A stretch of 64,000 nt of DNA from Candidatus Anstonellales archaeon (lineage in GTDB: Archaea; Micrarchaeota; Micrarchaeia; Anstonellales; J096). Positions 47,701 through 50,700 of the stretch are shown here, in pieces. Position 1 is the stretch's first letter, and each line of letters begins with the position of its first letter. The position numbers are program-made. The DNA lies in the NCBI GenBank assembly GCA_038740615.1, contig JAVYLQ010000001.1, positions 19,157 to 83,156 on the forward strand, written 5' to 3'.

Positions 47701-50700
47701 AATTCCTAAACTTAAGGAGAAAGCTCAGGAGATTATGGCAATTTACATAGATGGATTAATACCTGATAGTGTGATATCTACTATTGCATCCACAAATGCA
47801 GAATACTTAGGAATAACTAATCCTAATGCAAAGTATACTATAAAATCCAAGCTGGGTAAGAATAATAAGAACATCAGGGTAGTGTCTCTAGATGATTGAA
47901 ATACAATTCTTAGGAACCTCATCTGGAATCCCATCTCTTACTAGAAACTTCCCATCAATCAGCATAAAAGATCTAAGATCTGGAGATATAAATCTGTTTG
48001 ATGTGGGTGAGGGAACACAGAGACAGATTCTCAGATACGGTCTAGGCTTGGGTAAGATCCGTAGAATATTCATAAGCCACTTACACATAGATCACTTTCT
48101 AGGTTTATATGGATTAGTAGAAACGTATAAAGTTTATGGTATAGAATTACCTGAGATATATCTTCCAGATAGAATACCTTATATAGCTAGTGAATTCCCA
48201 TTTAAATTCATCAGAGCCAAGACTCTCGTTGATTCAGAAAACTACAGGATAGATGCATTCAGAGTAAAACACATGAAAAATTCTTATGGGTTTGTGTTTG
48301 AGAGTAAGGGTATTAGGAAGTTTATACCCGAGAGAATAAAGGGACTAAATGACAGGGATTTTATCAATCTGAAGAGTAAGGGATACACAATAAAAGGTGA
48401 GAACATAGTAAAAATAGATGAGATCACTTATATACAGGCCGGGATTAGAATTCTATACACAGGCGATAGTATGTTCTATCCCGATCTAGTGAATATTATA
48501 GAGCATGCTGATGTAGTTATACACGACAGTACTTTCTTAGATGAGGATAGAGAGGCTAGAGATAAGAAACACTCTACTGCATTACAAGCTAGTGAGATGG
48601 CTAGATTGCTAGGAGCCAAACTTCTCATTCTAACCCATATCAGTAACAAATATGAATCTTGGAGAGATGAGGATATAATATCTAAAGTAGGTAATAGTGA
48701 CATTCCTATTGTAGTTGCAAGAGATGGTATGAAAATTACTCTAAAAAGAACGGATTCTGGAGATATAGAATATAATATAAAGATATAAAAAGATTTCTAT
48801 GTTATAATAAAAGCAGGTGAGACTATGCCTGAGAACAAACCAGAAAATGATAATGTAGTTCTAATCGGAAAGAAGCCTACAATAGGATATGTGTTAGCAG
48901 TACTAACACAGCTCAGCCAGGGTGCAAAAGAGGTAATAATAAGAGCAAGAGGAAAGCAGATAGCAAGAGCAGTAACTGTTCTAGAGTTGCTAAAGAGAAA
49001 ATACAGACCAGATATAAAAACAAAGTCTATAACTACATCTACAGAAGATGTACCAAAAGAAGATGGAAAAGTGACAAAAGTCTCTGCTATAGAGATTATA
49101 GTAGAGGCTTAATCCTTTCTATTTTTTCCCTTCCTTTTCCAATTCTTCATATCTCTTTCTGATCTTGTTGTATAATTCCTCTTTTATATCTCTACCAGCC
49201 ATATCTGCTTTCATAGCTATAGAAAGTTTGGATGCAAGTGTTCTGGCCATTTTACCTCTAAGTCGTTTTGGTAATCTATTAACCCAAGGCGATAGATATA
49301 ATATACCATGTTTGGGTGGTTTTATTTTACCTTTGGATCGAATATGTTTAAAGAGTGCCTTTTCTGCACCGATAACCTGTATAGTTGATGCTGGCGCATT
49401 CACCAATTTATCATAACTACCCATTTTCTCTAACATCATAGCTACTATAAAAGGACCTACTAAATAGCTCGAATTAGGAAATCTACTCTGAATAAGTTGC
49501 TCTATCTTCTGCCTGATCTGCCGTTCCTCACGTCGTATGACATCGTATATATCGACAAATTCTCTGTAAACACTCTCATCAAATCCGTGTTTTCTAATTG
49601 ATTCATATATCTGTGGGTCCTTAGGATCTTTCACATCTAGATACATAGAATTTTTAATCCACTCTTGTAATCTCTCTTCAAAGAGATTCTGAGTATCCTT
49701 TAGATCATAATATGCTCTAATCAGATTAACTATATACTGATCCTCTGAAGGTTCCTGTAACTCTCTCTCCAATTTTTTCAAGAATTTCTTCTTTAAATCA
49801 TCTCTCATAGAAATAGATTCTTAATTAGGAATATTGGATCAGTAAGCTGTTTCTTATACTTAAGAGTATCCTCGGATACTATTGTGGAAGTGATCAATTC
49901 TTTTAATTCTCTCTTATGATTCACTCTGTTGAAGAAATGATTCAACAACCATCTAATGGAACCAAGTCTCTGAATCCTATACATTGTTTGGAGTTCTGGA
50001 TCTAATTTCTCCTTTAATAGATCATCGTACATTTTCAATACTTTCTCTGAAAAGTCCCCTAATTCAAAAGCTTTTTTTATTGTTTGAGCTGCTAATTTAG
50101 ATGATAGTAGTGCATTCCCTATACCCTCTCCTGTCAGAGGATCTATTAGAGCTGCAGCATCACCAACTAGGAGTAACCCATTGAAATATGGTTTTCTTCT
50201 CTTAGAACCCAAAGGTAATGTCCAACCTATTATATTAGTTAATCTCTTAGCATTCTTAAATCTATCTTTAAATTTAGGGTGTTCATTTATCAATTTTTCC
50301 ATGAGTTGGGTTAAATTAATCTTCTTGTTTCTCATGTCTCTATCCAACATTCCAATACCAACGTTAGCTTTCTTACCTTCTAGAGGGAATATCCAGAAGT
50401 ATCCAGGTAATGCCTCTTCTACAAAATGTATTTCTATTACCTCTCTCATTCCCTCCACTCCATCGTAATATGCTCTTACAGCAGAAACATAATGATCTGG
50501 ATCTCTGAATGCAACTCCTGCCTTGTTAGCTACTACTGAAGCAGCACCATCCGCCCCAACTATTATTTTTGCTCTAAACTCATGTATATTTCCAGAATTA
50601 TCTTTAGCCAATACACCTACGTAATTATCATTCTCTTTTATCAGATCAAACACAGTCATTTGCTCATAGGCGTCCAAACCCTCTATTTTCTTAGCATTTT

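What a model noticed while it worked through the whole genome (the two positions that open the first line are those of the whole stretch)
49119..49808. Minimal Nop5 without the fibrillarin-binding N-terminal domain
The box C/D RNP scaffold Nop5 of this genome (g00071) has only 229 residues against about 400 in studied archaea: it keeps the C-terminal Nop (L7Ae/RNA-binding) domain but has no counterpart of the N-terminal domain that holds fibrillarin, nor of the first half of the coiled coil. The same short form is the rule in the order Anstonellales. Fibrillarin (g00017) and L7Ae (g00174) are present, so the methylation RNP must be put together differently, or the N-terminal part is supplied by an unrecognised protein.
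Evidence so far: swissprot.tsv: g00071 residues 46-223 align to residues 197-358 of the 414-aa Nop5 MJ0694, 37% id; pfam.tsv: Nop PF01798 only. Nop-domain search in 41 relatives: 39 with a hit; stop-to-stop frames are 233-250 aa in all 6 genomes of the genus and 233-332 aa in 33 of the 38 genomes with an unbroken hit (model 228 positions). Of the five longer frames three were read (G148 436, G011 414, G139 409 aa; G147 364 and G140 350 not): the Nop domain starts at residue 4, 157 and 47; the extra length is C-terminal or, in G011, an upstream RGG-rich stretch. The upstream neighbour g00072 is geranylgeranyl reductase. ESMFold2 complex of g00071 with fibrillarin g00017: ipSAE 0.47, best of 3 controls 0.02, v [...]
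(Added by a program. Inside this text positions count along the whole contig: contig position 19,157 is position 1 of the stretch shown here. "Call 12" and the like, gene names such as g00115 and contig names such as C1 are that model's own, and its searches are not shown. The text may have been shortened before it was handed on; [...] marks where a part breaks off. The agent that wrote the report below was given it as the finding of a first reader that could run no searches.)

Follow-up and report, generated by a model that had tools for sequence, protein, structure and literature searches.

The report
Nop5 scaffold without its fibrillarin-docking domain
This tiny archaeon, like its whole phylum, has a real but stripped-down Nop5 protein that lacks the domain known to hold the rRNA methylase fibrillarin, although fibrillarin and its guide RNAs are still there, so the methylation particle must be held together in a way not yet described.

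Summary
The ORF at 49119-49808 (-) is a complete 229-aa Nop5. A stop lies 5 codons upstream and its ATG overlaps the stop of the preceding gene. A second strain differs at 15 listed sites, all at codon position 3.

The globular fibrillarin-binding N-terminal domain (NTD) is missing. What remains ahead of them is one helix, residues 2-18. It superposes on S. solfataricus Nop5 115-134, the last helix of the NTD, starting just after the aromatic pair that packs on fibrillarin.

The loss is wider than the order: 50 of 50 Nop5 loci read across the phylum lack the NTD, 24 of them outside the window's order. In named genomes, only the 3 Micrarchaeota loci of 80 lack it. No separate NTD gene was found with Pfam PF21572 (0 of 151 genomes over cut-off) or with my own validated profile.

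The rest of the system is intact: fibrillarin with an invariant catalytic tetrad, L7Ae, and 7 canonical dual-guide C/D sRNA candidates. Two guides match 16S rRNA, and guides recur across genera.

How fibrillarin is recruited is unresolved. This scan had already noted the loss in three other Micrarchaeota genomes, and I found no paper reporting it.

The parts
49119..49808 (-). Complete Nop5 gene, 229 aa plus stop
   Evidence: ORF. In-frame stop 5 codons upstream. Pfam Nop E 3e-30. Best PDB hits are archaeal Nop5 chains, E 9e-35 to 1e-24. 15 of 15 listed strain differences fall at codon position 3.
49749..49808 (-). Residues 1-20: retained last helix of the former N-terminal domain (helix 2-18), a candidate minimal fibrillarin contact
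   Evidence: Model helix 2-18, pLDDT about 80. Model residue 1 corresponds to 3pla_A residue 115. In alignment A3 the N-terminus aligns just after the aromatic pair of helix alpha6. Conserved in 61 NTD-less proteins: Arg at column 6 in 57 of 60; hydrophobic residues at columns 9 and 10.
49482..49745 (-). Residues 22-109: coiled-coil dimerisation domain (helices 22-55 and 78-109), without the tip insertion
   Evidence: Model. Residues 21-53 align to S. solfataricus Nop5 135-167. Alignment A3 shows the insertion between the helices missing, as in the A. fulgidus/Methanothrix type.
49122..49481 (-). Residues 110-229: Nop C-terminal domain, binding L7Ae and the K-turn, including the helix 9' region (about residues 151-167)
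   Evidence: Pfam. 19 invariant columns in 61 sequences, all in this domain, including those across the helix 9' region. Superposes on 3nvi_A 130-373 with Z 20.8, rmsd 1.9. Helix 9' is essential for methylation according to PMC7229835 (passages).
49805..51055 (-). Upstream gene, FAD-dependent geranylgeranyl-reductase-like, 416 aa. Its stop overlaps the Nop5 start (ATGA).
   Evidence: ORF. Pfam FAD_binding_3 and GGR_cat. It closes the space where an N-terminal domain could be encoded.
48825..49112 (+). Convergent downstream neighbour, Alba, 95 aa. Fibrillarin does not occupy its usual downstream position.
   Evidence: ORF. Pfam Alba E 9e-17.

Best explanation
This is the genuine, complete and expressed-as-read Nop5 of a Micrarchaeota (DPANN) genome. 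An ancestor of the phylum deleted the globular N-terminal domain, the inactive RuvC-like fold that docks fibrillarin in all studied archaea and eukaryotes. What was kept is the last helix of that domain, the coiled coil and the Nop domain.

The protein should still dimerise through the coiled coil. It should still clamp L7Ae-bound C/D and C'/D' K-turns of canonical dual-guide sRNAs, and still place the guide-target duplex with its conserved helix 9'.

I infer that the particle still methylates rRNA. I also infer that fibrillarin is held by a much smaller contact: the conserved amphipathic N-terminal helix (residues 2-18). This helix is homologous to the part of helix alpha6 and the linker that lies in the canonical interface. 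The coiled coil or the RNA duplex may help. This would be the end point of a reduction series that runs from a 120-130-aa NTD, to the 71-aa A. fulgidus NTD that folds only on fibrillarin, to a single helix.

Shown: the anatomy, the phylum-wide distribution, the intact partners, and the conserved guides. Inferred: that fibrillarin binds at all, and where it binds.
For: The gene is real and complete.

The NTD is absent:
- Pfam, NCBIfam and PDB alignments.
- The model, pLDDT 94.9, matches laboratory delta-NTD constructs best: 3nvi_A Z 20.8 and 3icx_A TMt 0.71.

The N-terminal helix is retained:
- Model residue 1 corresponds to S. solfataricus residue 115.
- PMC7962484 puts Ss Y113, Y114 and L117 of alpha6 around the conserved fibrillarin Tyr, counts Ss 1-132 as NTD, and states that C-terminal NTD residues contact Nop1 in yeast (passages and section 8).
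- The helix is conserved in 61 NTD-less proteins: Arg 57 of 60, hydrophobic 59 of 60 and 61 of 61.

The trait is phylum-wide:
- The Nop domain is found in 290 of 301 genomes and fibrillarin in 294 of 301.
- 50 of 50 loci read lack the NTD.
- Of 80 loci from named archaea, only the 3 Micrarchaeota/Anstonellales loci lack it. Woese-, Nano-, Undin- and Parvarchaeota keep one.

The functional link to fibrillarin is kept:
- Fibrillarin lies directly downstream of the NTD-less nop5 in L138, and by coordinates in G197 and G137.
- In G131 and G031 it lies one or two inserted genes away.

The system is intact:
- Fibrillarin K42, D133, K160 and H198 are invariant in 27 sequences.
- It passes NF003276 at 271 bits against a cut-off of 113.
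- No fibrillarin column conserved in 59 other archaea is relaxed in 28 Micrarchaeota.
- L7Ae is present.
- There are 5 strict plus 2 relaxed C/D sRNA candidates, against 0 in 10 shuffled genomes.
- Two guides pair 11 of 12 with 16S rRNA, reached by 0 of 200 shuffles.
- The strict pattern occurs in 16 of 61 genomes of the phylum, against 0 of 61 for the reversed control, with the same guides in different genera.
- The helix 9' region is invariant, and it is needed for methylation but not for assembly (PMC7229835).

Reduction-series precedent: the A. fulgidus NTD is small and unfolded without fibrillarin (PMC7962484 section 7).
Against:
- The two aromatic residues that define the archaeal alpha6 contact are exactly what the protein has lost.
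- The paper's own mutants suggest this contact is not the main determinant of complex stability. A single helix would bury far less surface than the canonical domain.
- Conservation of the helix could instead reflect packing on the coiled coil or RNA binding.
- The fibrillarin Tyr equivalent (own Y86) is Tyr in only 54% of the 28 Micrarchaeota fibrillarins, against 71% of 59 other archaea.
- In the window's genome nop5 and fibrillarin are about 52 kb apart.
- Methylation at the predicted sites is not shown.
Confidence: 0.42

Rival explanations
1. An unrecognised separate protein, either a very diverged NTD or an unrelated adaptor, bridges fibrillarin to the NTD-less Nop5.
For: - The canonical interface is large, and NTD deletion is the standard way to remove fibrillarin from the particle (architecture in PMC7229835; delta-NTD structures 3nvi and 3icx).
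- Fibrillarin shows no relaxed surface columns, as if a partner still binds.
- The genome is only 83% complete.
- NTDs are poorly conserved even among archaea (PMC7962484).
- An earlier scan note (e1-2576863) describes an orphan gene coupled to fibrillarin in one narrow DPANN lineage.
Against: - PF21572: 0 of 151 genomes over cut-off. The 21 weak hits fall in unrelated frames of 85-1169 aa.
- The own-genome hit (E 0.008) is a cysteine-free AhpC/TSA-like protein.
- My own NTD profile finds 15 of 15 held-out NTDs, but nothing better than E 0.32 in 6710 own frames, and nothing at 20 further loci.
- There is only one Nop-domain gene per genome.
- No gene recurs next to fibrillarin in more than 8 of 31 loci.
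- Fibrillarin frames show no fusion.
Confidence: 0.2
2. There is no stable docking. Either fibrillarin is recruited only transiently by the guide-target duplex, or the Nop5-L7Ae-sRNA particle acts mainly as an rRNA-folding chaperone while fibrillarin works on its own.
For: - The docking domain is gone in every locus read.
- nop5 and fibrillarin are unlinked in this genome and in most of the phylum.
- Many relatives carry Arg/Gly-rich RNA-binding-type tails instead of the NTD: 12 of the 20 long frames.
- A P. furiosus Nop5-fibrillarin heterodimer methylates RNA without guide RNA (PMC5558902; title and abstract seen only).
Against: - The guide-independent activity cited still needs Nop5-bound fibrillarin.
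- Strict 12-nt spacers, and guides conserved between genera, fit the box D + 5 ruler of a particle with a positioned methylase.
- Helix 9', needed for methylation and not for assembly, is invariant.
- nop5 and fibrillarin remain adjacent in some members.
- The fibrillarin catalytic tetrad is invariant.
Confidence: 0.2
3. Artefact: a truncated, split or mis-called gene, a pseudogene, or an assembly error.
For: It is the shortest Nop5 in the set (229 aa), and the genome is a 31-contig draft.
Against: - The start is fixed by an upstream stop and the ATGA overlap.
- Nine close homologues of 221-235 aa exist on other contigs.
- 50 of 50 loci begin at the same position.
- The whole stretch is found in one piece in DNA runs of two further studies.
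- 15 of 15 listed strain differences are at codon position 3.
- Model pLDDT is 94.9.
Confidence: 0.02
4. It is not Nop5 but a solo-Nop protein of another system: TasA of TIGR-Tas, or a Prp31-like protein.
For: It has the same architecture, coiled coil plus Nop domain without an effector-recruiting N-domain, as TasA (PMC12045711, passages) and as Prp31 (2ozb, Z 17.0).
Against: - Sequence hits to archaeal Nop5 reach E 9e-35, against 6e-8 for Prp31.
- TasH reaches only Z 8.4.
- It is the only Nop gene in a genome that has L7Ae, fibrillarin and dispersed C/D sRNAs.
- No repeat array lies in the window.
Confidence: 0.02

Closest known systems
Archaeal Nop5 (aNop56/58; NCBIfam NF011121; structures 3PLA, 3ID5, 2NNW, 3NMU, 1NT2)
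   Same: It is the orthologue. It has the coiled-coil dimerisation domain, the Nop domain with all invariant L7Ae/K-turn residues, and the helix 9' region. It is single-copy and sits in a genome with fibrillarin, L7Ae and dual-guide C/D sRNAs.
   Different: It lacks the globular N-terminal fibrillarin-binding domain. Only the equivalent of S. solfataricus residues about 115-134 remains. It scores 153 bits against the family cut-off of 452. It is not next to fibrillarin here.
A. fulgidus-type minimal Nop5 (1NT2; NTD residues 1-71)
   Same: Best PDB sequence match (E 9e-35). It has the same short coiled coil without the tip insertion. It represents an already reduced NTD that cannot fold without fibrillarin (PMC7962484).
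   Different: A. fulgidus still has about 60 residues of NTD ahead of the point where this protein starts: query 11 corresponds to chain 64.
Laboratory N-terminally truncated Nop5 (3NVI, P. furiosus 130-; 3ICX, S. solfataricus 135-380)
   Same: Nearly the same domain content. Highest Z: 20.8 with rmsd 1.9 over 204 residues. These constructs still bind L7Ae and C/D RNA, as the title of entry 3NVI states.
   Different: This is a natural protein kept by selection in a whole phylum. It retains about 20 more N-terminal residues, a conserved helix, than the constructs do.
Prp31 (U4 snRNP; 2OZB, 3SIU)
   Same: Coiled coil plus Nop domain with no fibrillarin-docking domain. It binds an L7Ae-family protein on a K-turn. 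Z 17.0.
   Different: Only 20% identity, with E 6e-8 against 9e-35 for Nop5. Prp31 is eukaryotic and spliceosomal, with its own C-terminal domain.
TasA, the solo-Nop effector of TIGR-Tas systems (PMC12045711)
   Same: Architecture: a Nop domain dimerised by a coiled coil, without the RuvC-like N-domain. That paper reads the Nop5 NTD as an inactive RuvC that recruits fibrillarin.
   Different: This is a secondary loss inside the Nop5 orthologue group, not a Tas protein. There is no TIGR array. The guides are L7Ae-type C/D sRNAs. The related solved Tas chain, TasH, reaches only Z 8.4.

Membership tests
Archaeal Nop5 / aNop56-58 | C-terminal Nop domain that binds the L7Ae-K-turn complex | tested here: met
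   PF01798 E 3e-30. Invariant columns S141, T142, Q144, G147, A148, E149, A151, L152, F153, P165, K166, H167 and G168. Z 20.8 to 3nvi_A.
Archaeal Nop5 / aNop56-58 | Antiparallel coiled-coil dimerisation domain | tested here: met
   Helices 22-55 and 78-109 in the model. They superpose on the coiled coil of 3pla_A and 1nt2_B. Dimerisation itself was not tested.
Archaeal Nop5 / aNop56-58 | N-terminal domain that binds fibrillarin (Pfam PF21572 or PF08156) | tested here: not met
   No residues are available for it. Only the last helix remains. NF011121 is matched from model position 234 only.
Archaeal Nop5 / aNop56-58 | Helix 9' that places the guide-substrate duplex | tested here: met
   The region around residues 151-167 is invariant or nearly invariant in 61 sequences. 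Its role is taken from PMC7229835. The residue mapping is by my own count from the alignment.
Archaeal Nop5 / aNop56-58 | Physical binding of fibrillarin and guide-dependent methylation | not testable with these tools
This needs biochemistry.
Archaeal box C/D sRNP system (whole) | Fibrillarin, L7Ae and C/D sRNAs with C, D', C' and D boxes, about 12-nt spacers and rRNA-complementary guides | tested here: met
   Fibrillarin. L7Ae. Seven sRNA candidates, against 0 in shuffled genomes. Two guides pair 11 of 12 with 16S rRNA. Guides recur across genera.
TasA / TIGR-Tas | Adjacent TIGR array of alternating short repeats with about 9-nt spacers | tested here: not met
   No such array in the 64-kb window. 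Tandem Repeats Finder gives 6 trivial rows.
Prp31 | Closer in sequence to Prp31 than to Nop5/56/58 | tested here: not met
   E 6e-8 for Prp31 chains against 9e-35 for Nop5 chains.

The most novel reading that the evidence does not exclude
Micrarchaeota run a box C/D particle of a new architecture. One possibility is that fibrillarin is tethered by a single short helix or by a non-homologous adaptor. The other is that guide RNP and methylase have been uncoupled altogether. In that case the Nop5-L7Ae-sRNA particle would act as a methylation-independent rRNA chaperone, and fibrillarin would act alone or be recruited only by the RNA duplex. Either way the supposedly indispensable Nop5 N-terminal domain would be dispensable in nature.
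Probability: 0.4. Interest if true: 0.8.

Novelty: new variant of a known kind. Interest (0 to 1): 0.62.

Why it matters
Every structural and biochemical model of box C/D RNPs, archaeal and eukaryotic, attaches the methyltransferase through the Nop5/56/58 N-terminal domain. Here a whole phylum has deleted that domain yet keeps fibrillarin catalytically intact, keeps L7Ae, and keeps guide RNAs that are conserved between genera.

- The case gives a natural minimal system, with a 229-aa scaffold and a 209-aa methylase, for asking what is really needed to position fibrillarin.
- It bears on the proposed descent of Nop5 from solo-Nop (TasA-like) proteins by gain of an inactive RuvC domain, because it shows the reverse step.
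- It is directly testable by reconstitution, and by methylation mapping in the few cultured Micrarchaeota.

Tried and rejected
- **PF08156 (NOP5NT).** No hit in the own genome, but the model rings over cut-off in none of the control genomes. The result is uninformative.
- **Own-genome PF21572 hit.** C11:3919-4215, E 0.008, 15 bits. Rejected as an NTD candidate: it is an AhpC/TSA-like thioredoxin-fold protein (PF00578, E 1.5e-5). None of 6 genomes of the same family has such a hit. The 21 weak hits in 151 genomes fall in unrelated frames.
- **Metallophosphoesterase next to nop5.** Present in 23 of 31 loci, and translationally coupled in G131 and G031. Considered as an adaptor and set aside: by eye its metal-binding motifs look intact (not checked against a reference), and it is unlinked in the own genome (C21:7408-7917).
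- **Relaxed surface on fibrillarin.** No column conserved in other archaea is relaxed in Micrarchaeota. Canonical interface positions are themselves variable, so the test has little power.
- **Expression.** Contigs from two RNA libraries cover only 48848-49008 and 48920-49365, and DNA carry-over is not excluded. One RNA-library contig shows a 1-nt deletion at 49131 at depth 6, possibly an error. This is no evidence of transcription boundaries.
- **Source labels.** Two NTD-less proteins are labelled Diapherotrites or ainarchaeum. By eye, the N-terminus of P0054 is near-identical to that of locus L138, which is labelled Micrarchaeota. I therefore do not claim the trait outside Micrarchaeota.
- **First translate call.** One search was out of frame and is not used.
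- **Literature.** Nop5+DPANN gave 3 papers, none relevant by title. Nop5/fibrillarin/Micrarchaeota: none of the 15 listed papers mentions Micrarchaeota. Nop5 with ARMAN, Micrarchaeum and similar names: none of the 15 listed papers mentions Nop5. fibrillarin+Micrarchaeota gave 0 papers.
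Full report
**1. The observation**

The window holds an ORF at 49119-49808 on the minus strand, 229 aa long. 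In frame, a stop codon lies 5 codons upstream of the ATG. The ATG overlaps the stop of the preceding gene (49805-51055, an FAD-dependent geranylgeranyl-reductase-like protein) in an ATGA overlap. No longer N-terminus can be encoded.

Pfam sees only the Nop domain: PF01798, residues 80-220, E 3e-30. NCBIfam's aNOP56 model NF011121 matches only its positions 234-378 of 417, at 153 bits against a cut-off of 452.

A related strain is present in one piece in a DNA run of another study. It differs at 15 listed places inside the ORF, and all 15 are at codon position 3. The frame is therefore under purifying selection.

Two RNA libraries were laid. Only one contig, from run X17, reaches the gene, covering its 3' third (48920-49365). 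This does not prove transcription.

**2. Anatomy**

The best PDB sequence match is A. fulgidus Nop5: 1nt2_B, E 9e-35, query 11-225 against chain 64-257. With S. solfataricus Nop5, residues 21-53 align to 135-167 and residues 84-225 align to 240-376.

An AlphaFold2 model built from 61 NTD-less homologues has pLDDT 94.9. Its helices are 2-18, 22-55, 65-73 and 78-109, followed by the Nop domain.

- By Foldseek, the chains it covers best are the laboratory N-terminally truncated constructs 3nvi_A and 3icx_A, both with TMt 0.71.
- By VIA-align, model 21-227 matches 3nvi_A 130-373 (Z 20.8, rmsd 1.9), and model 1-226 matches 3pla_A 115-377 (Z 20.3).

Both coiled-coil helices are therefore present. 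What this genus lacks is the tip insertion between the two helices, as in the A. fulgidus/Methanothrix type.

Residues 1-20 are not junk. They correspond to S. solfataricus residues about 115-134, the end of what structural papers count as the NTD: Ss 1-132, Pf 1-123, Af 1-71 (PMC7962484, passages). In that paper, helix alpha6 residues Pf W104/F105/Y108 and Ss Y113/Y114/L117 surround a conserved fibrillarin tyrosine (section 8). The Micrarchaeota proteins begin right after the aromatic pair (alignment A3).

Within 61 NTD-less proteins this helix is well conserved:

| Column | Conservation |
|---|---|
| 6 | Arg in 57 of 60 |
| 9 | Phe in 44 of 60; hydrophobic in 59 of 60 |
| 10 | Leu/Ile/Met/Val in 61 of 61 |
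| 23 | Asp/Glu in 61 of 61 |

**3. Scope**

Of the 120 best of 293 database homologues, the N-terminal overhang over this protein falls into four classes:

| Overhang (residues) | Proteins |
|---|---|
| None | 85 |
| 28-42 | 4 |
| 51-76 | 21 |
| 107-135 | 10 |

In a sample of 301 genomes of the window's phylum, the Nop domain was found in 290 and fibrillarin in 294. These tallies include the unpublished genomes G198 and G029. No locus of theirs was read.

I read 30 Nop5 loci and then the 20 with the longest open frames. In 50 of 50 the protein starts at the position of this protein's residue 1. Of these, 26 come from the window's order and 24 from other orders. Extra length is either C-terminal or, in 12 of the 20 long frames, a low-complexity Arg/Gly/Ser/Pro-rich N-terminal tail.

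I also took 80 Nop5 loci from named genomes, ranked by likeness to a Methanothrix Nop5. Only the three labelled Micrarchaeota or Anstonellales lack the NTD. Loci labelled Woesearchaeota, Nanoarchaeota, Nanopusillus, Undinarchaeota and Parvarchaeota keep one of about 50-90 residues.

The loss is therefore a trait of the phylum. The source labels name it Micrarchaeota. It is not a trait of one order.

This scan had already noted the same loss on three other Micrarchaeota genomes: e1-1173619, e1-1491230 and e1-1089464.

**4. Is the N-terminal domain encoded elsewhere?**

- PF08156 is uninformative, because its controls fail.
- PF21572, the archaeal Nop5 N-domain model, gives one weak hit in the own genome (E 0.008). 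It lies in a cysteine-free AhpC/TSA-like protein.
- Across 151 genomes of the phylum, PF21572 passes its cut-off in 0. The 21 weak hits lie in unrelated frames.
- I built a profile from 33 NTDs of named archaea. It recovers 15 of 15 held-out NTDs (E 1e-35 to 0.009 at the same database size), but scores at best E 0.32 among 6710 frames of the own genome. It finds nothing at the 20 extra loci.
- Fibrillarin frames are mostly 217-270 aa, so there is no fusion.
- No gene accompanies fibrillarin in more than 8 of 31 loci.

A homologous separate NTD is thus unlikely. A non-homologous adaptor cannot be excluded, and the genome is only 83% complete.

**5. The rest of the system is intact**

Fibrillarin (C1:16388-16987, 209 aa) passes NF003276 at 271 bits against a cut-off of 113. 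In 27 fibrillarins of the phylum K42, D133, K160 and H198 are invariant; I recall these as the catalytic tetrad. No column conserved in 59 other archaeal fibrillarins is relaxed in 28 Micrarchaeota. An L7Ae-family gene is at C3:10879-11139.

A strict search for box C, a 10-13-nt spacer, box D', a 2-10-nt loop, box C', a 10-13-nt spacer and box D finds 5 sites. A relaxed search finds 7. Ten shuffled genomes give 0 each. The candidates are 49-52 nt long, and 12 of the 14 spacers are 12 nt.

The genome has a 16S and a 23S gene. Two guides pair 11 of 12 with 16S rRNA, and 0 of 200 shuffled guides reach that.

The strict 12-nt pattern occurs in 16 of 61 genomes of the phylum and in 0 of 61 with the reversed control. 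The same guide sequences recur in different genera. The guides are therefore under selection.

The helix 9' region of Nop5 is invariant in the NTD-less proteins. Deleting helix 9' abolishes methylation but not assembly (PMC7229835, passages).

In some members fibrillarin is still directly downstream of the NTD-less nop5: L138 and, by coordinates, G197 and G137. In the window's own family, genomes G131 and G031 have nop5, a metallophosphoesterase, a GNAT acetyltransferase and then fibrillarin.

**6. Mechanism**

What is shown:
- a complete Nop5 reduced to last-NTD-helix, coiled coil and Nop domain;
- partners and guides that are intact and conserved.

What is inferred: that the particle still methylates, and how fibrillarin is held.

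My preferred reading (0.42) is that the retained, conserved helix is the minimal docking element. This would be the end point of a series from about 125 residues, to the 71-residue A. fulgidus domain that folds only on fibrillarin (PMC7962484 section 7), to one helix.

Against it:
- The aromatic residues that make the known alpha6 contact are the ones lost.
- A single helix buries little surface.

Rival readings are an unrecognised adaptor (0.2), loose or RNA-mediated recruitment or a chaperone-only particle (0.2), an artefact (0.02), and a Tas/Prp31-type protein (0.02). The evidence for each is given in their own sections.

**7. Comparison and novelty**

The protein is an orthologue of archaeal Nop5 that fails one defining feature of the family, the NTD. 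In domain content it equals the laboratory delta-NTD constructs, Prp31 and the solo-Nop TasA of TIGR-Tas systems.

The TIGR-Tas paper reads the Nop5 NTD as an inactive RuvC that recruits fibrillarin, and reads TasA as the ancestral form (PMC12045711, passages). The Micrarchaeota protein is then a secondary return to the solo-Nop architecture inside a working box C/D system.

No TIGR-like array is in the window.

I found no paper that reports the loss:
- Nop5+DPANN gave 3 papers, irrelevant by title.
- Nop5/fibrillarin/Micrarchaeota and Nop5 with ARMAN-type names: the papers listed did not combine the terms.
- fibrillarin+Micrarchaeota gave 0 papers.
- Supplements and papers outside the library were not seen.

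I rate it a new variant of a known kind, with interest 0.62.

Noticed in passing
Own genome, outside the window: C1:18917-18966(+), C3:4215-4263(+), C3:28700-28749(+), C4:1835-1883(+), C15:6769-6817(+), C19:2982-3033(-), C29:5616-5665(-): Seven canonical dual-guide box C/D sRNA candidates of 49-52 nt, mostly with 12-nt spacers. The first lies about 240 nt before the window start and 1.9 kb from fibrillarin. The D guide of C3:28700 and the D' guide of C15:6769 pair 11 of 12 with 16S rRNA.
   Followed up: partly
L159 (G131:C45) 1607-4364 and L160 (G031:C1) 1283-5042: In the window's family, nop5 is translationally coupled to a 210-aa metallophosphoesterase and a 129-aa GNAT acetyltransferase, with fibrillarin further downstream. 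The phosphoesterase neighbours nop5 in 23 of 31 loci of the phylum, but is unlinked in the own genome at C21:7408-7917.
   Followed up: partly
L164, L166-L168, L171, L172, L174, L176, L177, L179-L181 (Nop5 loci of other genomes of the phylum): 12 of the 20 longest Nop5 frames carry low-complexity Arg/Gly/Ser/Pro/Glu-rich N-terminal tails of about 60-349 aa where the NTD would be. These recall the GAR domain that eukaryotes have on fibrillarin. The window's protein has none.
   Followed up: no
L002:1504-1938(+) = own genome C11:3922-4356: A 144-aa AhpC/TSA-like protein (PF00578, E 1.5e-5) without a single cysteine, downstream of a 365-aa ORF that I took by eye for a tryptophanyl-tRNA synthetase. 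It would be a peroxiredoxin fold that cannot be a thiol peroxidase. It gave the weak PF21572 hit.
   Followed up: partly
L001:1489-2118(+) = own genome C1:16376-17005 (fibrillarin): Fibrillarins of the phylum have Ser-Gln after the invariant Lys160 (own 161-162, 93% each in 28 sequences), where 59 other archaea have Ala-Arg (73% and 93%). The own genus also lacks the first beta-strand and two loop residues.
   Followed up: no
window 2367-2480(+), 1114-1201(-), 55429-55514(-), 10346-10606(-): A 5S rRNA, two tRNA genes (each 86-88 nt, so possibly with an intron or a long variable arm), and a second L7Ae-family gene (61.7 bits, possibly L30e).
   Followed up: no
window 48800-50300: The stretch is held near-identically, or at about 97.6% identity, in hot-spring metagenome runs of several studies. 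One strain variant shows only third-position changes in Nop5, and 12 of 13 listed changes in the upstream gene are also at position 3.
   Followed up: partly
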